A DNA stretch of 40,000 nucleotides, from the NCBI RefSeq assembly GCF_003946085.1, contig NZ_RHOB01000005.1:17716-57715 (forward strand), in the 5' to 3' direction. The stretch is from Levilactobacillus angrenensis (GTDB lineage Bacteria > Bacillota > Bacilli > Lactobacillales > Lactobacillaceae). The notes under the pieces were generated by a model. The model saw nothing but the letters and a program-made list of their open reading frames with translations, was not told the origin of the DNA and did not search any database. How positions within the stretch are numbered: the stretch's first letter is position 1; each line of letters begins with the position of its first letter. Made by a program: the position numbers and the translations under genes. Positions 373 through 9,540 of the stretch are shown piece by piece.

Positions 373-554
373 GGTCGTTGTGTAAAATAATGCAGCGATA
401 AGTGGTAAGCTCGTCAACAGATTGTTGCCGTTACATTGGTTCAAGAAGTAACCTGCGGCTGCATAGGGTGAAACTTGCAAAGCAACCTGCACGAATACTA
501 AACTTATAAACAGCTTATTTTACTCCAAATAATATTTTATTGGAGGAACTATCT

Positions 555-1160
555 ATGTCTCGTTACACTGGCCCAAGCTGGCGTATTTCCCGTCGTTTAG
601 GGGTATCCCTTTCCGGCACTGGTAAAGAATTAAACCGTCGTCCTTACGCACCTGGTGATCATGGTCAAGGTCGTCGTCAAAAGTTATCTGAATACGGTAC
701 GCAATTGCGTGAAAAGCAAAAGCTCCGGTTCACTTACGGCATGACTGAACGTCAATTCTACAACTTGTTCAAGCGTGCCGGCAAGATCTCTGAAGGTACT
801 CATGGTACTAACTTCTTAATCTTGCTCGAACGTCGTCTGGACAACATGGTTTACCGTTTAGGTTTGGCAACGACTCGTCGTCAAGCTCGTCAATTGGTTA
901 ACCATGGTCACATCACTGTTGATGGCAAGCGCGTTGACATCCCTTCATACGAAGTCGAAGTTGGCCAAGTCATCTCTGTTCGTGAAAAGTCCAAGGACAT
1001 GGCCATCATCAAGGGCGCTGTTGAAGCCGTTGTTGGTCGTCCACAATACGTTCAATTCGACGCTGACAAGCTGGAAGGTTCTCTTACCCGCTTCCCTCAA
1101 CGTGAAGAATTAGACGCAGAACTTGACGAATCTCTTATCGTTGAATACTACAACCGTTAG
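555..1160 (+). CDS. rpsD: 30S ribosomal protein S4
   Basis: [16 protein letters not shown]... is the canonical S4 N-terminus, and an S4 RNA-binding domain follows ([27 protein letters not shown]). GGAGG lies 7 nt upstream of the ATG at 555. The TTG at 540 in the ORF track is upstream of that SD. Confidence 0.97.
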
Positions 1161-3975: not shown

Positions 3976-4134
3976 CTATGCCTCAGCTGGCTTGTAGTCG
4001 GTGCCCGTGATTTCTTTATACTGGTCAGCGGTGATAGTCCCCAGCGGAACGTAGGCTGCCAGGAACTCATCTGTCATAAACATCTTGCCCCAGCTGTATT
4101 GCATCTTTAAAACATCAAAATTTGGATAAGTCAT
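3976..4134 (-). CDS. XkdX-family small phage protein (52 aa; below the ORF-track cutoff)
   Basis: My translation is MTYPNFDVLKMQYSWGKMFMTDEFLAAYVPLGTITADQYKEITGTDYKPAEA. The ITADQYKEITG motif is typical of XkdX. AGGAGG lies 8 nt upstream. Confidence 0.75.
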   Translation of the reverse strand: MTYPNFDVLKMQYSWGKMFMTDEFLAAYVPLGTITADQYKEITGTDYKPAEA

Positions 4135-4152
4135 GATAAATTCCTCCTATTT

Positions 4153-4599
4153 TTATTCTGTAGTAGCAGCTTGGCTTTGCGCCATTACTTTTGACATTTG
4201 AACTAACATTTGTTTCATTTGAGTCTGGTCGGCGGCCGATTCAGCTTGCGCTTGGCTTGACTGAATCAACATCTGCTGCAACTGTGTGATAGTAGCATTG
4301 GCGGCAGTCAACTGACTATCCATGGTACTGATAGTATCCGTAGCCGTTGTCAGTTGGCCGTTCACCACATCAATGACGTGTAGCAAGTGATCGACGCTTA
4401 AGTCAGCAAAATCATCGCTGGTCCGCTTGAATTGGCCGTCAATCACCAAATACTTCGTCCAATTTTCCAACAAGTAATTTAGCATCCCCGGCCGAATCCA
4501 CAGTTCTGTCAGGCCGTCTGCAGACACCGACTTGGGCTGCTCGTTTAGTGTTGAATTATCAGCATCGATGCTGACATACACTGGTACTGTTTTTGACAT
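4153..4599 (-). CDS. Hypothetical tail-associated protein with a Q/A/T-rich C-terminal coiled coil (XkdW position)
   Basis: The start was moved to MSKTVPVY (AAGGAG 8 nt upstream, inside the end of the preceding gene). The 24-aa extension in the ORF track overlaps that gene. Confidence 0.65.
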   Translation of the reverse strand: MSKTVPVYVSIDADNSTLNEQPKSVSADGLTELWIRPGMLNYLLENWTKYLVIDGQFKRTSDDFADLSVDHLLHVIDVVNGQLTTATDTISTMDSQLTAANATITQLQQMLIQSSQAQAESAADQTQMKQMLVQMSKVMAQSQAATTE

Positions 4600-4603
4600 A
4601 AAA

Positions 4604-5029
4604 TCACTCCTTAATTTTTTCGATATTGATTTTAACTGAACCGGACATACCGATATAAAAGTTCTGAGCATCGACTCTATCTGTACTGCTGTACGACACC
4701 GCGCTAATTGTCATACCATCATCGCTAATCATTAATCTAACACCACCTATAGTGGCACCATAATTTTGCATACAGTTTCCAACGAAGTTATTTGCCCCAG
4801 CAAAATTAACAAACCTAAAGCCATCAGGTGGATTAATTTTGAAAGACATCGTTGACGTGGAAACCATACCAAAAATTTTCATTTGAGTATTATCCACTTG
4901 AGACAACAGCAATCCACTACTAATTGTTCCGACAAAATTTGTATACGGTTTCCACTGATTTATCCGGTCATAAAGCACCTGGTTACCCAGGGTAATCTTG
5001 GATACATCATCGCTAATTGCTAATCCCAT
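4604..5029 (-). CDS. Tail-fibre-region paralogue 4 (141 aa)
   Basis: N-terminal DVSKITLGNQVLY and central INPPDGFRF motifs are shared with the other three paralogues. GGAGG lies 9 nt upstream. Confidence 0.75.
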   Translation of the reverse strand: MGLAISDDVSKITLGNQVLYDRINQWKPYTNFVGTISSGLLLSQVDNTQMKIFGMVSTSTMSFKINPPDGFRFVNFAGANNFVGNCMQNYGATIGGVRLMISDDGMTISAVSYSSTDRVDAQNFYIGMSGSVKINIEKIKE

Positions 5030-5077
5030 AAGTGTTCGCCTCCAATCAAAGACGAACCCTTATGAGTTAGTGAAATT

Positions 5078-5131
5078 CTATAGGGTTGCCCCCCCCCGAA
5101 CATTTACGGTGCTTGTGAATTTATCGTACAT
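5078..5131 (-). CDS. Mini-ORF A (17 codons, MYDKFTSTVNVRGGATL) containing the G9 tract
   Basis: AAGGAGGA lies 7 nt upstream of the ATG, inside the end of the upstream gene. It is homologous in layout to mini-ORFs B and C. Confidence 0.5.
   Translation of the reverse strand: MYDKFTSTVNVRGGATL
5089..5097 (-). repeat. Homopolymer: C9 on the plus strand = G9 on the coding strand
   Basis: Counted directly: ...gttg ccccccccc gaac... Confidence 0.95.
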
Positions 5132-5133
5132 GG

Positions 5134-5628
5134 TTAGTCCTCCTTGATTACATTGAATTGGATATCTGCAGAAAATAATACATTAGCAGCTCCAGGCCCG
5201 CCATATGAGTTGTTGAGCACCCATGTTTGGCTACCTTGATTTGCCGCATAGTTATTTGAGATTTGCCCATAACACTTATTTCCATCGTATTTCATCGGAA
5301 CAGCATGTCCTCCTCCCGCTCCTGAATCACCAATAGTAAAAGTTGCTGGGTTATTAGACGCGAAGCTATACCCATTTGGCAACTCTAATGCCAGTCGCCA
5401 TTTTTTAATGCCCTCACCAGATGGGATTGTAACCGCGCGGATGCCTTTAAAAGCTGCAATACCGGTTTGAGGGTCAAATTTCATAATTTCCATACCGACA
5501 AAATCCGTTCCCTTTGTCCCGTTGTCTGGAAGCTCAATCCACGTAGTATTCGGGTCTTGCCGCTCCCACAGAGTCTCACTGCCAAGGGTGATTTTCGCTA
5601 CATCGCTAGACATGCTAACCTCACTCAT
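5134..5628 (-). CDS. Tail-fibre-region paralogue 3 (164 aa from MSEVSMSSDVAKITLG)
   Basis: Motifs DVAKITLGSETLW and LELPNGYSF. The start at 5628 gives the same N-terminal length as its paralogues, with GGTGGTGA as the SD. The ATG at 5613 is an alternative start. Confidence 0.75.
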   Translation of the reverse strand: MSEVSMSSDVAKITLGSETLWERQDPNTTWIELPDNGTKGTDFVGMEIMKFDPQTGIAAFKGIRAVTIPSGEGIKKWRLALELPNGYSFASNNPATFTIGDSGAGGGHAVPMKYDGNKCYGQISNNYAANQGSQTWVLNNSYGGPGAANVLFSADIQFNVIKED

Positions 5629-5661
5629 GGCAGTCACCACCAGTCTGAGTAGAACCAGCGG

Positions 5662-5718
5662 TTAGAGGGTGGTTTCTACCCCCCCCCCCGACATTTTAAG
5701 CGTGTTAACTAGTTTCAT
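5662..5718 (-). CDS. Mini-ORF B (18 codons, MKLVNTLKMSGGGVETTL) containing the G11 tract
   Basis: AAAGGA lies 8 nt upstream. An in-frame ATG at 5727 has no spacer to the SD. Confidence 0.45.
   Translation of the reverse strand: MKLVNTLKMSGGGVETTL
5679..5689 (-). repeat. Homopolymer: C11 on the plus strand = G11 on the coding strand
   Basis: Counted directly: ...ttcta ccccccccccc gaca... Confidence 0.95.
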
Positions 5719-5732
5719 TTGTCTCATCCTTT

Positions 5733-6233
5733 CTAGTCCGGTATTACAGACGTTGTAGTCCAGCAATGATATCCTGTGTAGTTATCATCTAAATCGCTCA
5801 TAAAAATAATTATTCTTCCTGCAGGGTAAACTGAAGCTGAGTTCATTTTCCAATTGAATTTTGCACTAATTGAATCACCTGACATGGTGAAAGACAAATC
5901 ACCATAGTAGGATCCAGTCCCATACATAATTCCAGATGTGGCATTACTAGTTTTGCTTCCGAGTGGGAAAGTACTGTCAGTCTTGCTAAACCGATACCCA
6001 TCTGGCAGCGTTAAAAGAATCTTGTTCCATGTACCTTGACTATATGTCCATGTGATATCAGCAGCTCCAATAAAACTAGTAACGCCTGTCGATGCATCAT
6101 AGTGCATCAAAATTGGCGTGCCCGAAAAGTCTGCATTGACCATACATGGTAGCCACACATCTTCCGCATTCACAAACTCGTTTCCGGCCAGTGTCAATCG
6201 TGATATCTTGTCTCCGCCTACTGTGAGTGTCAT
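5733..6233 (-). CDS. Tail-fibre-region paralogue 2 (166 aa)
   Basis: Motifs DKISRLTLAGNEF and LTLPDGYRF. GAGGTGA lies 6 nt upstream. Confidence 0.75.
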   Translation of the reverse strand: MTLTVGGDKISRLTLAGNEFVNAEDVWLPCMVNADFSGTPILMHYDASTGVTSFIGAADITWTYSQGTWNKILLTLPDGYRFSKTDSTFPLGSKTSNATSGIMYGTGSYYGDLSFTMSGDSISAKFNWKMNSASVYPAGRIIIFMSDLDDNYTGYHCWTTTSVIPD

Positions 6234-6266
6234 AAGGCATCACCTCGGTGGTTCAGACGAGTATTT

Positions 6267-6308
6267 CTACCCCCCCCCCATGATAAATGGGGTTAATTTA
6301 TTAGTCAT
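6267..6308 (-). CDS. Mini-ORF C (13 codons, MTNKLTPFIMGGG) containing the G10 tract
   Basis: TAGGAGGT lies 6 nt upstream of the ATG and overlaps the stop of the upstream paralogue. A TAG follows the G run directly. Confidence 0.5.
   Translation of the reverse strand: MTNKLTPFIMGGG
6270..6279 (-). repeat. Homopolymer: C10 on the plus strand = G10 on the coding strand
   Basis: Counted directly: ...ttcta cccccccccc atga... Confidence 0.95.
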
Positions 6309-6319
6309 GGTATTACCTC

Positions 6320-6847
6320 CTATACTTTCTCAAGTCCGATGATTGCAGGACCACCAAAATTATCGTCTGTAGCAGAGACATGGTTGATGTCATTACCGTT
6401 AAAGTTAATCAACACACGTATTTTTCCATAAAGATTACTGTTATGTTGAGCTCGCACAACTGTGACATTTCCATCTGCAAAAGAAATATATCCATAGCCA
6501 CGCTGAACGGCTTGATTGGATCCTGATGTTGTATACATACTCGTATAAACTAGAATTGTCGGTCCATAAGATGGTCCAACTTGCCAATTATGATCTAGAA
6601 AAGTATACCCGTTGGGTGGATTTAGCAACTTAAAAGACGGCGTGTACAAGCTATCCGATGTTGCTTGGGTCAAATAGCCTAAGCTTCCAACTAATCCTGC
6701 TGTTCCATCGCCGTAATCCTTAAAAAACACATTGCCGCTCACCCCATCAGGTAGCTTCAGCGGAATCCATCCATCAGAATTCTGCCAGACAGTGTCGCCG
6801 CCCAACGTAATCTTGCTGACGCTATTTGGTACTTCCAATTCAGCCAT
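6320..6847 (-). CDS. Tail-fibre-region paralogue 1 (175 aa from MAELEV)
   Basis: Motifs SVSKITLGGDTVW and LLNPPNGYTF. The start overlaps the fibre stop (TAATG), with GGGGAGGTG upstream. Confidence 0.8.
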   Translation of the reverse strand: MAELEVPNSVSKITLGGDTVWQNSDGWIPLKLPDGVSGNVFFKDYGDGTAGLVGSLGYLTQATSDSLYTPSFKLLNPPNGYTFLDHNWQVGPSYGPTILVYTSMYTTSGSNQAVQRGYGYISFADGNVTVVRAQHNSNLYGKIRVLINFNGNDINHVSATDDNFGGPAIIGLEKV

Positions 6848-7773
6848 TATGCTGCACCTCCCCATGGAGCCGGTTCAGCGGCTGGGCGCGTGCCATCCTT
6901 GTGTACGATAATTGTCGTTGGATGCGCTGCCACATAGGCCGTGACTGCATCCGCATCATCATCGGCATAGACGGTAGTCACGCCTAGCACGCTGGCCCCA
7001 TCAACGCTTAAATTACCCGGGTCGAAGTCAACCTTGCTACCCTTGCCTGCTTCGCTCACCGTGACTACATGATTCTCATCGGCAGGCGTGATAACCTGCT
7101 TGTCCACAGTGATAGTGCCGTCGGTATTATCCCGCACATAAGCCCCATCAGCTGTCTCTCGGGCTACGTAAGGACTCCCATTGGCATTGGTCGGGTCTTT
7201 CAAGAACTTCCACAGAGCCGCAATCTCAGCATCCTTATCTGAATACATCAGTGTAGCTGGCAGGATTACTTTGTGGGCTTCAATCGCCTTATCCACGTAT
7301 TCCTTGGTTGCCATCCCGGCTGGGTTGATAGTCACCTCGACATTCTCGGCCTTGCCGACAATCATGTAGACGATCATGCCGAACTGCATCAAAACTTTAT
7401 CGTTAAAGTCCGGAATAAACTCCGGCTTAATGGCCTTGACCACGGCATAGAGAACTTCTGACTTACTGTCACCGGTCTCAGTAGCATACAGGCCAACCGC
7501 ACCGATTGAATAGCTCTCAGTAAGTCCTGAATTTTCAAACGTGACGTCAGTCCCCACAATGGCGCCGTTGCCATCAGGAGAACTCAGCCGGTCGTTGATG
7601 GTACCTGTTTGCACCTCATTTGGTAGTGCCGTCAACTCAGTCACATCCACATCCGACAAGTCATCAGCTGTGGAAGCTACCCGGGTAATCGTAAAGCTAG
7701 TCTTTCCGTTGGCTGCCAAACTAGATAGCCGCAACCCTTCATTCGTTAACTCAGACGCATCATACTTACTCAT
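6847..7773 (-). CDS. Tail fibre protein with a P2 gpH-like N-terminal (tail-collar fibre, DUF3751-like) domain
   Basis: LTNEGLRLSSLAANGK..FTITRVA...LPNEVQ...IGAVGLYA...EVTINPAGMATKEYVDKAIEAH parallels the P2 gpH N-terminus (…TIDTTTVMATQDYVDDKIAEH). Confidence 0.8.
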   Translation of the reverse strand: MSKYDASELTNEGLRLSSLAANGKTSFTITRVASTADDLSDVDVTELTALPNEVQTGTINDRLSSPDGNGAIVGTDVTFENSGLTESYSIGAVGLYATETGDSKSEVLYAVVKAIKPEFIPDFNDKVLMQFGMIVYMIVGKAENVEVTINPAGMATKEYVDKAIEAHKVILPATLMYSDKDAEIAALWKFLKDPTNANGSPYVARETADGAYVRDNTDGTITVDKQVITPADENHVVTVSEAGKGSKVDFDPGNLSVDGASVLGVTTVYADDDADAVTAYVAAHPTTIIVHKDGTRPAAEPAPWGGAA

Positions 7774-8399
7774 CGATTCTCATCCCCTCCCTTAATTTTT
7801 GCTCTTACATAAATCTGTGGTTTAATTGCTCCAAAGTACTGCAGTTGCTGCACCACTGCGGTTCGCCGCGTCTTTGGCATAATCGTCGCCTTAGTATAGG
7901 TCTGCGTCAGACTACCAATAAACACGGCCTGTTCCACCGATACATTAGATTCAGTAGTAATCTGATACGTCTGGTCCGCCGGCAGCATTACGTTCAGCAA
8001 ATACCGCAGTCGCTTGACTTGCTCCGGGGTGATTTCGTCGGCCTGACTCATCGTCGTCACATGGCTGCGAATGGCATCCTGGTCTACTGTGGCCGGAATA
8101 TCCATCGACGCTAGTAGCTCCCGAAAATACCAAATCGTGATTGGCCGCGGGGGCAGCAAGCGCACCATGATATCGTAGCGACGCGACTCTAGCGACTGGC
8201 TTAAATCCGTTGGCAACCCTAGTTGATTCTCGAAAATGCTGAGTCCATCGCTGTCAGCGGTGCTGACAAACTGGTTCAGTAAGATTCGAGTAGCCATATC
8301 ATCGAAGCTGTCAGCCTGTTTCTGTTCCGCTTCCATCAACCGTTGCATCTCACGGACACCATCGTAGTAATCCGGCAGGTAATCTTTTAGCTTAACCAT
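7770..8399 (-). CDS. Baseplate/tail protein, XkdU/YmfQ-like (DUF2313)
   Basis: LKDYLPDYYDGVREMQRLMEAEQ...LSIFENQLGL is the typical DUF2313 N-terminus. The start at MVKLKDY overlaps the upstream stop (ATGGTTAA). Confidence 0.8.
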   Translation of the reverse strand: MVKLKDYLPDYYDGVREMQRLMEAEQKQADSFDDMATRILLNQFVSTADSDGLSIFENQLGLPTDLSQSLESRRYDIMVRLLPPRPITIWYFRELLASMDIPATVDQDAIRSHVTTMSQADEITPEQVKRLRYLLNVMLPADQTYQITTESNVSVEQAVFIGSLTQTYTKATIMPKTRRTAVVQQLQYFGAIKPQIYVRAKIKGGDENR

Positions 8400-9540
8400 G
8401 AAGCACCACCTCACCAACCACCGGAAGCTCGGAAACTTCGCCGCTGAAAGTCATCACTACATCACTCTCGGCCCCGTTCAGAGTTGGGAGAGTGGCGTTA
8501 ATCACACCCTCGATTCGCATAATCTCCGAAAGAATCTGCGAACGGTATACCGTCAGCGAATAGCCCCGGCCGGTCACCTTGTCAACATCATCCCAAGCTT
8601 CACGCCGCTTGGCGAAGTAAGACTCAATGCCAGCTTTAATCTGGGCTTCGACGCTTGATACAGTAGCTTGCGAGTCCGTCGTTACCGTTGACTCAATATC
8701 AATTTGGACCTCTGTGGGAGCCACCACAGTGACCGCATGGCCGACTGGAGCCAGACCATAGCCTTGGCCCTCAAACTCGATTGGATCAATAGTTTTCTTG
8801 ACCTGGCCAATTAGTGAAGTGCTCGCCGCCCGAAGCTCATTGTTTACAATGACTAGCTTGACCGTGCCGCCACCTTGCCAAGTCGGATAGACTTGACCGG
8901 CCCCCACATCACTAATCTTAGACAGCATATCCAAGTAATCCGCAACGTTGCCGCCGTACGCGTTGTAAGCATCCGGTGATAGCAGCCGCTCCCGTAAGTG
9001 GTCATCGGTCTCGCTATCCTTGGCAGGTACCGTCACAGCGATAATCTCGGCCCAACTCAGGGCGTCGTTCGGCGTCACCGGCAGGATTTGACCTAGATAC
9101 CCGTTAGCCGTGGTCCCGACCTCATCAGCTGTCAGAATAGCCGTCTGGTCATCGTTGACGCTGGTGACGTGGTAGAAAATGGGTTCCTCACCCACGCTAG
9201 CGAATTGATCACCCAACTCCACATTACCAATCGCCGCCCCATTACTATCCAAAAACTTTGCTAGTACTTGCGCTGTGGTGGCAGCCTGCCGGACTGTCCC
9301 ACGTTCCGGAGCCCGATAGTCCAGGAACTCACCCGGAGCAGTCTTCGTATAGGCCGCCCGAACCACAGTTGCCATTTGTAGCGACTCTTCAGCTAGTTGG
9401 GTAGCTGCGGGGCCCAATGCATCATAGATGATAGAGCCTTGTCGCTTATCCACGTCATCACTCACATCATCCAGCATGGAGTCCATAAAGTAATCGAAGT
9501 CATGTGACTCCAATTCTTGCGCCAGTAATTCAGGATTCAC
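8392..9540 (-). CDS. Baseplate J-like protein (XkdT-like)
   Basis: DYFMDSMLDDVSDDVDKRQGSIIYDALGPAATQLAE is a Baseplate_J-type N-terminus. GTG start with GAGGTGA 6 nt upstream. Confidence 0.85.
   Translation of the reverse strand: MNPELLAQELESHDFDYFMDSMLDDVSDDVDKRQGSIIYDALGPAATQLAEESLQMATVVRAAYTKTAPGEFLDYRAPERGTVRQAATTAQVLAKFLDSNGAAIGNVELGDQFASVGEEPIFYHVTSVNDDQTAILTADEVGTTANGYLGQILPVTPNDALSWAEIIAVTVPAKDSETDDHLRERLLSPDAYNAYGGNVADYLDMLSKISDVGAGQVYPTWQGGGTVKLVIVNNELRAASTSLIGQVKKTIDPIEFEGQGYGLAPVGHAVTVVAPTEVQIDIESTVTTDSQATVSSVEAQIKAGIESYFAKRREAWDDVDKVTGRGYSLTVYRSQILSEIMRIEGVINATLPTLNGAESDVVMTFSGEVSELPVVGEVVLHG

What the first reader, a model, noticed from the sequence alone, without database searches (positions are those of the whole stretch)
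5078..6308. Uninterrupted G9, G11 and G10 tracts inside three homologous SD-preceded mini-ORFs between the tail-fibre paralogues
Each of the three gaps between the four paralogous genes has the same layout on the coding (minus) strand.
- Stop of the upstream paralogue.
- A good SD (AAGGAGGA, AAAGGA or TAGGAGGT) and an ATG.
- About 9-10 sense codons with a shared K-[LF]-x-[ST] core: MYDKFTSTVNV, MKLVNTLKMS, MTNKLTPFIM.
- A pure G run. The plus-strand C runs are 5089-5097 = 9, 5679-5689 = 11, and 6270-6279 = 10.
- TAGAA, directly after the run in two gaps and after the 8 nt CAACCCTA in the third.
- A C-rich block (CAACCC, ACCACCC or CCACCG).
- The SD and ATG of the next paralogue.
I noticed no other homopolymer of 9 nt or more anywhere else in the 40 kb.
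G/C runs of this length are classical sites of slipped-strand mispairing (phase variation) and of RNA-polymerase slippage. Hypermutable polyG tracts in receptor-binding genes are known for Campylobacter phages. I am not aware of a leader-ORF version of this, or of any such system in phages of lactic acid bacteria.
Hypothesis: tract length, or slippage in the mRNA, sets how far ribosomes travel on the leader. That would set which alternative distal tail proteins are made, giving a stochastic host-range or receptor switch.
Basis: partly seen in the sequence, partly recalled or inferred. Interest (0 to 1): 0.85.

Follow-up and report, generated by a model that had tools for sequence, protein, structure and literature searches.

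The report
PolyG leader switches between fibre-tip genes
In a Levilactobacillus prophage, each of three extra tail-fibre-tip genes follows a tiny leader gene holding a mutable run of 9-11 Gs, and the run's length sets whether ribosomes on the leader reach the tip gene's start, so the phage could vary its host-recognition proteins at random.

Summary
The only G/C runs longer than 5 nt in the 40 kb are C9, C11 and C10 at 5089-5097, 5679-5689 and 6270-6279. Each lies in a 13-18-codon, SD-preceded mini-ORF between four paralogous minus-strand genes downstream of the tail-fibre gene of a Levilactobacillus angrenensis myovirus-type prophage.

In 34 related loci (75 junctions, 32 sequence types) the same layout recurs. 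After the G run, two reading phases stop 20-57 nt before the next gene. One phase stays open and stops at that gene's start codon, mostly as ATGA. Tract lengths run from 7 to 14 and differ between loci with identical flanks, for example G8/G10/G14, G7/G11 and G9/G10/G12. About 29% of junctions are in the coupled phase.

Hairpins bury the start region of the downstream gene strongly at junction 3, weakly at junction 2 and not at junction 1. Elsewhere the paralogue domain forms the C-terminal end of full-length tail fibres.

Best reading: a slipped-strand contingency switch that acts through translational coupling of a leader ORF, giving combinatorial expression of alternative fibre tips. As sequenced, all three window switches are uncoupled. 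The mechanism is inferred, not shown. It is a new variant of phage polyG phase variation.

The parts
6847..7773 (-). Tail-fibre gene (308 aa). It has an N-terminal baseplate-proximal domain. Its stop overlaps the start of paralogue 1 (TAATG).
   Evidence: Residues 1-177 match PHROG tail-fibre families 12519, 7037, 23632 and 19961. It follows the baseplate J and Mu gp48-like genes. It is 32-38% identical to fibre-position proteins of Lactobacillus myophages.
6320..6847 (-). Paralogue 1 (175 aa from the ATG at 6847). It has no polyG leader and is coupled directly to the fibre gene.
   Evidence: P0012.
6267..6308 (-). Leader mini-ORF 1 as sequenced: MTNKLTPFIMGGG* (ATG 6308-6306, stop TAG 6269-6267). 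The SD GGAGG lies at 6320-6316 and overlaps the stop of paralogue 1.
   Evidence: State: G10, immediate stop, uncoupled.
6270..6279 (-). G10 tract of junction 1 (C10 on the + strand).
   Evidence: Homologous tracts in relatives measure G7, 8, 9, 10, 12 and 14.
6230..6266 (-). Junction 1 spacer. It holds a pyrimidine block that pairs with the 3' end of the G run (GGGUA-GAAA-UACUC), the mid-frame stop TGA, the SD AGGTGA (6245-6240), and the long-frame stop TGA at 6232-6230 overlapping the paralogue 2 ATG (6233-6231).
   Evidence: With G9 or G12 the leader would read ...GGGRNTRLNHRGDAL* and end in ATGA.
6280..6296 (-). Conserved 17-nt block TTAACCCCATTTATCAT immediately 5' of the G run (type A junctions).
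   Evidence: It is nearly invariant in 11 type A junction sequences yet is read in two different frames. Its CCCC can pair with the G run.
5733..6233 (-). Paralogue 2 (166 aa).
   Evidence: P0001, 100% identical, Levilactobacillus angrenensis. The AF2 model is all-beta.
5662..5718 (-). Leader mini-ORF 2 as sequenced: MKLVNTLKMSGGGVETTL* (ATG 5718-5716, stop TAA 5664-5662).
   Evidence: State: G11, 'mid' frame, stopping 36 nt before the next ATG, uncoupled.
5679..5689 (-). G11 tract of junction 2.
   Evidence: Homologous tracts measure G7, 8, 9, 11 and 13.
5621..5661 (-). Junction 2 spacer. A hairpin pairs AACCGCTGG (about 5663-5655) with the SD region GGTGGTGA (5641-5634). The long-frame stop TGA lies at 5623-5621, 5 nt into paralogue 3 (ATG 5628-5626).
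   Evidence: The RNAalifold consensus has 10 pairs, all kept or changed on one side only. Unpaired probability of the start region is 0.36, against a control median of 0.48.
5134..5628 (-). Paralogue 3 (164 aa from the ATG at 5628).
   Evidence: P0011.
5078..5131 (-). Leader mini-ORF 3 as sequenced: MYDKFTSTVNVRGGATL* (ATG 5131-5129, stop TAG 5080-5078). The SD AAGGAGGA lies at 5145-5138.
   Evidence: State: G9, stopping 51 nt before the next ATG, uncoupled.
5089..5097 (-). G9 tract of junction 3.
   Evidence: Direct homologues are G9 in four other lineages, G10 in L032, and at least G10 in L026, whose contig ends inside the tract. Sister type C junctions measure G7-G14.
5019..5071 (-). Junction 3 extended hairpin. 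The 10-bp core pairs 5057-5048 with 5043-5034. It buries the SD GGAGG (5043-5039) and the ATG (5029-5027) of paralogue 4. The long-frame stop TAG lies at 5022-5020.
   Evidence: RNAfold gives -25 kcal/mol. RNAalifold gives 24 pairs, one compensatory, with no pair of the core broken. Unpaired probability is 0.14, below all 24 control starts.
5065..5074 (-). Invariant 10-mer TTCACTAACT of all type C junctions. It contains the stop (TAA) of one uncoupled frame.
4604..5029 (-). Paralogue 4 (141 aa).
   Evidence: P0014.

Best explanation
The three G tracts are hypermutable contingency tracts that change length by slipped-strand mispairing during DNA replication. They sit in dedicated leader mini-ORFs, not in the structural genes.

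Each leader has its own strong SD and ATG, placed just after the stop of the preceding paralogue, so it is probably translated efficiently. The tract length modulo 3 decides which of three frames the ribosome leaves the G run in:
- Short frame: the ribosome stops at once, or within a few codons (TAG/TAA directly after the run in J1 and J2).
- Mid frame: the ribosome stops 4-7 codons later, at a conserved CTAAC/CTGAAC motif.
- Long frame: the ribosome reads through the whole spacer. This melts the hairpin that occludes the next gene's SD and AUG (strong at J3, moderate at J2). It terminates on or a few nucleotides past that gene's start codon (ATGA at J1, +5 at J2, +7 at J3), which allows termination-reinitiation coupling.

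Only the long frame would give efficient translation of the next paralogue.

The paralogues are free-standing versions of a tail-fibre C-terminal (distal) domain. Independent switching at three junctions could therefore give up to eight combinations of fibre-tip proteins among progeny virions, a bet-hedging device for adsorption or host range. Paralogue 1 is always made, because it is coupled directly to the fibre gene. In this genome as sequenced, all three switches are in uncoupled phases.

What is shown:
- The tracts exist.
- The three-frame architecture is conserved.
- Tract lengths are polymorphic between near-identical genomes.
- The hairpins are conserved.
- The paralogue domain is fused to fibres elsewhere.

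What is inferred:
- The leaders are translated.
- Coupling controls expression of the paralogues.
- The paralogues bind receptors.
For: - The tracts are unique in the 40 kb.
- The same junction module recurs in 34 loci from Levilactobacillus brevis, L. angrenensis, L. yiduensis, Lactobacillus sp. and metagenomes: 75 junctions of 32 flank types.
- In all of them, exactly one frame ends between -2 and +10 of the downstream ATG (ATGA in most), and the other two stop 20-57 nt upstream.
- Indels between lineages keep this arrangement. Spacers of 36, 42, 48 and 51 nt occur. A 1-nt indel in L023 J2 comes with a new ATGA stop.
- Tract length differs between loci with identical flanks:
  - L028/L019/L020: G8/G10/G14, G9/G9/G8 and G7/G7/G11.
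  - L005 against L009: G7/G7 against G8/G8.
  - L034/L035/L038/L039: G9/G10/G12/G12.
  - Several contigs break inside a tract.
- 22 of 75 junctions (29%) are in the long phase, close to the one third expected for an unselected three-phase switch in a dormant prophage.
- Substitutions in the long frame show no codon-position bias. Selection therefore keeps the frame open, not the peptide, as expected for a cis-acting leader.
- SD/AUG sequestration:
  - RNAalifold hairpins keep their pairs through wobble intermediates. One extension pair of the J3 (type C1) hairpin shows a true compensatory change, A-U in three sequences and G-C in one. In J2, one SD-stem pair occurs as G-U, G-C and A-U, all one-sided changes.
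  - Unpaired probability of the start region is 0.14 at J3 and 0.36 at J2, against a control median of 0.48.
  - Mann-Whitney p = 0.0017 and p = 0.0001 in the two versions of the test, across junction types that are not independent.
- There is no promoter or terminator excess and no Rfam family in the junctions.
- Paralogue identity:
  - The profile finds 130 cluster representatives. About 15 are 386-718-aa proteins with the domain at the extreme C-terminus.
  - 7 of the 10 scanned carry the same tail-fibre N-terminal PHROG families as the window's fibre.
  - For L. brevis P0098 this was confirmed pairwise.
Against: - There are no expression, proteome or population-sequencing data, so every functional step is inferred.
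- At junction 1 (type A) the downstream SD/AUG is no less accessible than control gene starts (0.40-0.42). In the window the CACC/GGTG stem would have a 2-nt loop and cannot form. Paralogue 2 might therefore be translated regardless of phase.
- All downstream genes have SDs of their own, so 'off' may only mean 'lower'.
- Junction 3 is G9 in five of seven lineages, less variable than expected for a free-running switch.
- With all three switches off, about 1.7 kb of mRNA upstream of the lysis genes would be poorly translated, which might be costly.
- The structure model of paralogue 2 is only moderate (pLDDT 75). It has no significant structural neighbour in the PDB, and only weak RBP/fibre-like hits in BFVD.
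- Most relatives are short-read single-run assemblies, in which long homopolymers are error-prone. However, differences of 3-4 nt, and agreement between NCBI, IMG and Logan copies, argue against artefact.
Confidence: 0.62

Rival explanations
1. Programmed recoding rather than heritable phase variation. The G run would be a site of RNA-polymerase slippage or ribosomal +1/-1 frameshifting: tRNA-Gly re-pairing on GGG GGG, with an adjacent stop codon and a hairpin just downstream. In every infection a fixed fraction of ribosomes would then enter the long frame, and each tip protein would be made at a set low ratio. The DNA length variation would be a by-product.
For: The run is followed directly by a stop codon in J1 and J2, and by a conserved small hairpin that includes the stop (GGGUA-GAAA-UACYC). 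The partner block of that hairpin varies only between C and U. This resembles known frameshift stimulators, by my own knowledge of prfB and dnaX. A G run is itself SD-like. Junction 3 is G9 in five of seven lineages.
Against: A programmed site should keep a fixed zero frame. Here all three phases occur at homologous junctions, even between genomes with identical flanks. Tract lengths span 7-14. The two mechanisms are not exclusive.
Confidence: 0.2
2. The G run and its flanks are an RNA or DNA structural or binding element, and the mini-ORFs are incidental. Possible roles are mRNA stability or processing, a protein-binding site, or conserved linkers that promote recombinational shuffling of tip cassettes between phages.
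For: - There is nucleotide-level conservation that a peptide cannot explain. TTAACCCYRTTTAYSAT is read in two frames, and TTCACTAACT is invariant in all type C junctions.
- The G run can pair with C/U-rich blocks on either side.
- The number of cassettes varies from 2 to 5 among relatives, and some relatives have none.
- Junctions are more conserved than the genes they separate.
Against: This does not explain several conserved features:
- The SD+ATG 10-13 codons upstream of the tract in all 32 junction types.
- Early stops in two frames.
- One frame kept open across 36-59 nt through indels.
- Termination at ATGA.

In addition, no Rfam match was found. No inverted repeats, invertase or DGR-type repeat pairs surround the cassettes.
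Confidence: 0.12
3. Sequencing or assembly artefact, or neutral mutational debris. The homopolymers would be mis-called or functionless remnants of the tandem duplication that produced the paralogues.
For: Long homopolymers are error-prone. Most relatives are short-read assemblies. Several contigs end in the tract.
Against: Tracts lie at homologous positions in every lineage examined, including a complete L. brevis chromosome (CP032931, L024), IMG/VR contigs and many independent runs. No other G/C run longer than 5 nt occurs in the 40 kb. A neutral G run would be interrupted quickly, yet all 75 are pure and at least 7 nt long, while the flanking genes have diverged to 35-65% protein identity.
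Confidence: 0.03

Closest known systems
Hypermutable polyG tracts in receptor-binding protein genes of Campylobacter phages (Sorensen et al. 2021, Cell Rep 35:109214). I know its content from memory. The paper is not held in the library; it is cited in PMC12823448 and turns up in the searches.
   Same: A phage-encoded pure G tract of similar length. Tract length varies between closely related genomes. The tracts are associated with host-recognition genes. The proposed result is phenotypic heterogeneity of progeny.
   Different: There the tracts lie inside the RBP coding sequences and switch between full-length and truncated protein. Here they lie in separate 13-18-codon leader ORFs, and are proposed to act through translational coupling on intact downstream genes. 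Here three switches sit in series in front of paralogous cassettes. The host is a Gram-positive lactic acid bacterium and the phage is temperate.
Contingency loci in coliphages T2 and T4 (Gomez, Barrick and Waters 2025 preprint, PMC12633550)
   Same: Polymerase-slippage tracts in phage genomes, proposed as bet-hedging devices.
   Different: Those are short runs (6 nt or more) inside coding genes such as agt and rIIA. In that survey they are under-represented in tail-fibre genes. No leader ORF or coupling logic is described.
Bacterial SSR phase variation (Neisseria, Haemophilus, Campylobacter, Helicobacter). This includes the variable G repeat in the Helicobacter pylori tlpB mRNA leader targeted by the sRNA RepG (PMC8295292).
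   Same: A homopolymeric G/C tract of 7-14 nt whose length sets expression. In tlpB the tract is likewise in a leader rather than in the regulated ORF.
   Different: Classical cases act by frameshifting the gene itself or by changing promoter spacing. In tlpB the length tunes sRNA pairing. Here the tract sets the reading phase of a translated upstream mini-ORF. I found no described case of this in six literature searches.
Translational coupling by overlapping stop/start (ATGA, TAATG) and by unfolding of an SD-sequestering hairpin. Textbook examples are trpB-trpA and MS2 coat-replicase, from my own knowledge.
   Same: In the long phase the leader terminates on or next to the start codon of the next gene. 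Its path crosses a hairpin that buries the SD and AUG (J3, J2).
   Different: In known cases the coupling is constitutive. Here it would be conditional on a mutable tract.
Tail-fibre switching by DNA inversion (Mu G segment with Gin, P1 C segment) and by diversity-generating retroelements (BPP-1 Mtd), cited in PMC12823448
   Same: The goal is the same: alternative distal tail-fibre modules encoded next to the fibre gene, chosen stochastically.
   Different: There is no invertase, no inverted repeats, no reverse transcriptase and no template/variable repeat pair. The alternatives are separate proteins rather than alternative C-termini.

Membership tests
SSR contingency locus (slipped-strand phase variation) | An uninterrupted simple-sequence tract long enough to slip (homopolymer of about 7-8 nt or more) | tested here: met
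   G9, G11 and G10. These are the only G/C runs longer than 5 nt in the 40 kb.
SSR contingency locus (slipped-strand phase variation) | Tract length polymorphism between otherwise near-identical genomes | tested here: met
   With identical flanks: G8/G10/G14, G7/G11, G9/G8, G7/G8 and G9/G10/G12. This was not shown for the window strain itself, because no second copy was on record.
SSR contingency locus (slipped-strand phase variation) | A change in length changes expression of a gene | tested here: inconclusive
   In silico, the length sets the leader's stop position relative to the next start. The effect on protein output could not be tested.
SSR contingency locus (slipped-strand phase variation) | High-frequency, reversible switching within a clonal population | not testable with these tools
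   This needs read-level or experimental data. Contigs that break inside tracts are only a hint.
Campylobacter-phage type polyG RBP genes | The tract lies inside the coding sequence of the receptor-binding protein, giving a full-length or a truncated product | tested here: not met
   All three window tracts lie in separate mini-ORFs outside the paralogue ORFs. One related lineage does carry an extra intragenic G7/G8 tract in its first paralogue (L005 against L006).
Campylobacter-phage type polyG RBP genes | The regulated gene encodes a receptor-binding or tail-fibre protein | tested here: inconclusive
   The paralogue domain is the C-terminal domain of full-length fibres elsewhere. Fold searches gave no significant match. 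No binding data exist.
Translational coupling | The upstream ORF terminates at, or within a few nucleotides of, the downstream start codon | tested here: met
   This holds in one of the three phases at every junction. The stop lies at +1 (ATGA), -2, +5, +7 or +10. None of the three window junctions is in that phase as sequenced.
Translational coupling | The downstream initiation region is occluded unless the upstream ORF is translated | tested here: inconclusive
   J3 is strongly occluded (unpaired probability 0.14, -25 kcal/mol). J2 is mildly occluded (0.36). J1 is not (0.40-0.42, within the control range of 0.33-0.74).
Programmed recoding site (transcriptional slippage or ribosomal frameshift) | A slippery tract kept at a fixed length and phase across relatives | tested here: not met
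   All three phases, and lengths of 7-14, occur at homologous junctions.
Programmed recoding site (transcriptional slippage or ribosomal frameshift) | Stimulatory elements next to the slippery site | tested here: inconclusive
   A conserved small hairpin and an adjacent stop codon are present. Whether they stimulate slippage is unknown.
Invertase or DGR tail-fibre switches | Inverted repeats plus a recombinase, or a template/variable repeat pair plus a reverse transcriptase | tested here: not met
   There are no flanking inverted repeats and no long repeat pairs in 4000-8500. No such gene lies between the fibre and the lysis genes.

The most novel reading that the evidence does not exclude
A virus-encoded combinatorial contingency switch of a new design. 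Three independent hypermutable polyG tracts each set the reading phase of a cis-acting leader ORF. Each one thereby gates translational coupling to a separate, intact tail-fibre-tip gene. A single prophage could then release up to eight virion types with different receptor-binding tips. As far as my searches show, this would be the first SSR-gated upstream-ORF coupling switch described in any phage, and the first polyG phase variation in phages of lactic acid bacteria.
Probability: 0.5. Interest if true: 0.88.

Novelty: new variant of a known kind. Interest (0 to 1): 0.78.

Why it matters
How temperate phages of Gram-positive bacteria hedge against receptor variation is poorly understood.

- If this holds, it adds a third genetic route to tail-fibre diversification, beside DNA inversion and diversity-generating retroelements.
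- It extends phage polyG phase variation beyond Campylobacter phages.
- It shows a regulatory design that leaves the structural gene intact and places the mutable tract in a disposable leader. That avoids truncated proteins and allows several switches in series.
- The module is compact, about 90-110 nt, and self-contained. It could be tested directly with reporters and might be reused as a stochastic translational switch.
- Levilactobacillus brevis is a beer-spoilage and fermentation organism. Host-range heterogeneity of its phages therefore matters for phage-based control and for starter-culture robustness.
- The case also warns annotators. The 25-36-aa 'genes' called in some assemblies, and the start-site shifts of the downstream genes, are products of tract phase.

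Tried and rejected
- DNA similarity to deposited phages: none by megablast or blastn. The paralogue has no tblastn hit in 50,697 phage records.
- Exact-protein look-up of the window's paralogue 2 found no second copy of this strain. Tract variation in this very prophage could therefore not be checked.
- A profile of the four window paralogues was too divergent for locus searching.
- The genome and IMG/VR scans with the fibre protein each gave only two loci. The paralogue 1 scan gave none.
- The single metagenome DNA-pattern scan returned only two eukaryote-like sequences that begin TTAACCC.... I guess these are piggyBac-type ends. They are chance matches and were discarded.
- I considered that the paralogues are homologous to the C-terminus of the window's own fibre, or to the longer 403-aa fibre of L. 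hammesii. hhalign finds nothing. L032 has a 403-aa fibre and paralogues together, so the paralogues do not simply replace a lost C-terminus.
- I considered that the long-frame leader peptide is itself functional. This was rejected: substitutions show no third-position bias, and the upstream block is read in two frames.
- My first guess for J2 was that ACCACC pairs with the SD. RNAalifold prefers the next block (AACCGCTGG) as the SD partner, and pairs ACCCUCU with the G run. Both registers are possible.
- Rfam, promoter and terminator scans of the junctions were negative.
- An invertase- or DGR-type repeat search was negative.
Full report
**1. Observation**

The window carries three pure C runs on the + strand: 5089-5097 (9 nt), 5679-5689 (11 nt) and 6270-6279 (10 nt). 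No other G or C run in the 40 kb exceeds 5 nt, and the longest A/T run is 7.

Read on the minus strand, each run lies in a short ORF that starts a few nucleotides after the stop of the preceding gene and has a good SD.
- Leader 1: 6308-6267, MTNKLTPFIMGGG*.
- Leader 2: 5718-5662, MKLVNTLKMSGGGVETTL*.
- Leader 3: 5131-5078, MYDKFTSTVNVRGGATL*.

One correction is needed: the TAG after the run is in frame only in junction 1.

**2. Context**

The window is a complete myovirus-type prophage of Levilactobacillus angrenensis (paralogue 2 is 100% identical to P0001). It lies next to rpsD. All phage genes discussed are on the minus strand.

The gene order is:
- sheath, tape-measure protein and baseplate genes, including Baseplate_J and a Mu gp48-like gene;
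- a 308-aa protein whose first 177 residues match tail-fibre PHROG families;
- four small paralogues of 175, 166, 164 and 141 aa, 21-30% identical to each other;
- the lysis genes.

Paralogue 1 overlaps the fibre stop (TAATG) and has no leader. Paralogues 2, 3 and 4 each follow a polyG leader.

Nothing similar exists in 50,697 deposited phage genomes at the DNA level. The paralogue protein has no hit there either. Only the fibre N-terminus resembles Lactobacillus myophages such as Lj771 and KC5a, at 32-38% identity.

**3. Relatives**

I collected 34 related loci holding 75 complete junctions of 32 distinct flank types. The sources were:
- protein-guided and pattern-guided scans;
- exact-protein look-ups of homologues.

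The loci come from L. brevis (including the complete chromosome CP032931), L. yiduensis, Lactobacillus sp. HBUAS51381, IMG/VR contigs and Logan assemblies. Two relatives, L. hammesii and one IMG/VR contig, have a longer fibre, no paralogues and no G tracts.

The junctions fall into three homologous types, A, B and C. These correspond to the window's J1, J2 and J3.

**4. The three-frame architecture**

For every junction I translated the leader at tract lengths n-1, n and n+1. Without exception, one phase stays open across the whole 36-59-nt spacer. That phase stops at -2 to +10 relative to the A of the next gene's ATG, and in most types the stop is the TGA of ATGA. The other two phases stop 20-57 nt upstream.
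- One of the two is closed by a stop directly or shortly after the run.
- The other is closed by the stop inside a conserved CTAAC/CTGAAC motif.

Indels between lineages preserve this arrangement.
- Type A spacers of 36, 42, 48 and 51 nt all keep the frame.
- In L023 a 1-nt insertion in J2 is accompanied by a shift of the stop from +5 to ATGA.

In shuffles of the window's own spacers, the full pattern arises in 3%, 11% and 12% of trials.

Substitutions in the long frame show no codon-position bias: 4/9/4, 8/5/12 and 8/8/8 variable columns at codon positions 1/2/3. The conserved block before the type A run is read in two different frames in different lineages. Selection therefore keeps the frame open and its end point fixed. 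It does not keep a peptide. This is what one expects of a cis-acting translated leader.

**5. Hypervariability**

Tract lengths range from 7 to 14. Counts by length are 18, 10, 17, 7, 12, 3, 1 and 7. They differ between loci whose flanks are identical and which encode identical neighbouring proteins:

| Loci compared | Tract lengths |
|---|---|
| L028 / L019 / L020 | G8/G10/G14, G9/G9/G8, G7/G7/G11 |
| L005 against L009 | G7/G7 against G8/G8 |
| L034 / L035 / L038 / L039 | G9/G10/G12/G12 |

Four contigs end or begin inside a tract. Differences of 3-4 nt between consensus assemblies, and identical calls for the same prophage in NCBI and IMG copies, argue against sequencing error.

Of the 75 junctions, 22 (29%) are in the coupled phase. 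This is close to the one third expected if phase drifts freely while the prophage is silent.

Junction 3 is the least variable. It is G9 in five lineages, G10 in L032, and at least G10 in L026, whose contig ends inside the tract.

In the window as sequenced, all three junctions are uncoupled: G10 gives the immediate stop, G11 the mid frame, and G9 an early stop.

**6. RNA structure**

RNAfold and RNAalifold predict two recurring elements.
- The first is a small hairpin. The 3' end of the G run, with the adjacent stop codon, pairs with a pyrimidine block just downstream. That block varies only between C and U.
- The second is a hairpin that contains the SD of the next gene.

The strength of the second element differs by junction.
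- At J3 it is a 24-pair extended stem of -25 kcal/mol. It buries both GGAGG and the AUG. It has one compensatory pair, and no pair of the 10-bp core is broken in four lineages.
- At J2 a 10-pair stem holds GGTGGT. Its pairs are maintained through A-U, G-U and G-C changes.
- At J1 in the window the CACC/GGTG stem would have a 2-nt loop and cannot form.

I also computed the ensemble unpaired probability of positions -15 to +2.

| Start site | Unpaired probability |
|---|---|
| J3 | 0.14 |
| J2 | 0.36 |
| J1 | 0.40-0.42 |
| 24 other phage gene starts in the window | median 0.48, range 0.33-0.74 |

Occlusion is therefore convincing at J3, modest at J2 and absent at J1. No promoter or terminator excess and no Rfam family were found in the junctions.

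**7. What the paralogues are**

With the word-indexed search the family looks tiny, at 21-23 proteins. A full HMM scan of 1.84 billion representatives finds 130 members. About 15 of these are proteins of 386-718 aa with the domain at the extreme C-terminus.

Seven of the ten I scanned have N-termini matching the same tail-fibre PHROG families as the window's fibre. For L. brevis P0098 (543 aa), the N-terminus aligns to the window fibre at 26% identity over 260 aa. Residues 405-467 match the paralogue profile with 96% hhalign probability, and the HMM match runs to residue 541, two residues from the C-terminus.

The paralogues are thus free-standing versions of a distal tail-fibre domain, with an extra conserved N-terminal segment of about 25 residues (...SKITLGG...W.P) that may dock on the fibre.

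The AF2 model is all-beta (pLDDT 75). It has no significant PDB neighbour and only weak fibre/RBP-like BFVD hits. A receptor-binding role is therefore plausible but not shown.

**8. Mechanism proposed**

Slipped-strand mispairing changes the tract length. The length modulo 3 sets the leader's exit frame. Only one frame takes ribosomes through the spacer and its hairpin to terminate on the next start codon, which would permit reinitiation.

Three independent switches, placed after a constitutively coupled first paralogue, would give mixed progeny with different sets of fibre tips.

Transcriptional or ribosomal slippage on the same run may add a basal level. I cannot exclude that this is the main mode (rival 1). 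However, the free variation of phase between near-identical genomes is not what a programmed recoding site looks like.

**9. Comparison with known systems**

The nearest precedent is the hypermutable polyG tracts inside RBP genes of Campylobacter phages (Sorensen et al. 2021). That paper is not held in the library, so I cite it through PMC12823448. Next are the intragenic contingency loci of T2 and T4 (PMC12633550).

The present case meets the sequence-level criteria of a contingency locus. It fails the criterion 'tract inside the regulated gene'. It differs in using a translated leader and start/stop coupling.

Six literature searches found no description of an SSR-gated leader-ORF coupling switch, and none of polyG variation in phages of lactic acid bacteria. 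Absence from this library is not proof of absence.

I therefore rate it a new variant of a known kind.

**10. Verdict**

- Confidence in the full mechanism is about 0.6.
- Confidence that these are real hypermutable tracts in a conserved three-frame leader architecture is about 0.9.

Noticed in passing
L005 3762-3768 against L006 1239-1246 (relatives; no counterpart in the window): One lineage has an additional G7/G8 polymorphic tract inside the coding sequence of its first paralogue. The G8 copy (L006) truncates the called gene from 146 to 107 aa. This is a classical intragenic contingency tract sitting alongside the leader-type ones.
   Followed up: partly
window 6296-6280 (minus strand), and all type A junctions: The 17-nt block TTAACCCYRTTTAYSAT directly before the G run is nearly invariant across lineages whose flanking genes are only 35-65% identical. 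It is translated in two different frames. The conservation is therefore at the nucleotide level, and its cause is unexplained. Its CCCY can pair with the G run.
   Followed up: partly
window 5074-5065 (minus strand), and all nine type C junction sequences: The 10-mer TTCACTAACT is invariant. It holds the TAA that closes one uncoupled frame, but ten invariant bases are more than a stop codon needs.
   Followed up: no
L017 start, L026 end, L036 end, L037 end: Single-run assemblies break exactly inside a G tract. This is what one would expect if tract length is heterogeneous within the sample. Poor coverage of homopolymers is the alternative explanation.
   Followed up: no
window 540-1160 (+); also L003 12044-12664 and L004 11004-11624: The prophage lies next to the ribosomal protein S4 gene (rpsD). 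Related prophages in L. hammesii and Lactobacillus sp. HBUAS51381 have the same neighbour, which suggests a shared integration site.
   Followed up: no
L001 9835-11010; L024 6332-7507: A transposase gene (Pfam Transposase_mut, 391 aa) is inserted between the XkdX-like gene and the holin gene of the L. brevis CP032931 prophage. This may have inactivated lysis of that prophage.
   Followed up: no
L011 1603-1692, L020 673-768, L009 2670-2762: Gene callers annotated the leader in its long phase as a 29-31-aa protein overlapping the next gene by 4 nt. Elsewhere (L032) the downstream gene was given a later start. Annotation of these loci depends on tract phase.
   Followed up: partly
L030 and L031 (metagenome contigs): The type A search pattern also hit AT-rich, eukaryote-looking sequences that begin TTAACCCTATTTACCATGGGGGG. 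From memory, these look like piggyBac-type transposon ends. They are chance matches, unrelated to the phage element.
   Followed up: partly
L003 6001-7212 and L032 2129-3340: Some relatives have a 403-aa fibre instead of one of about 300 aa. L003 has no paralogue array, while L032 has both. Fibre length and the presence of the array are therefore independent.
   Followed up: partly
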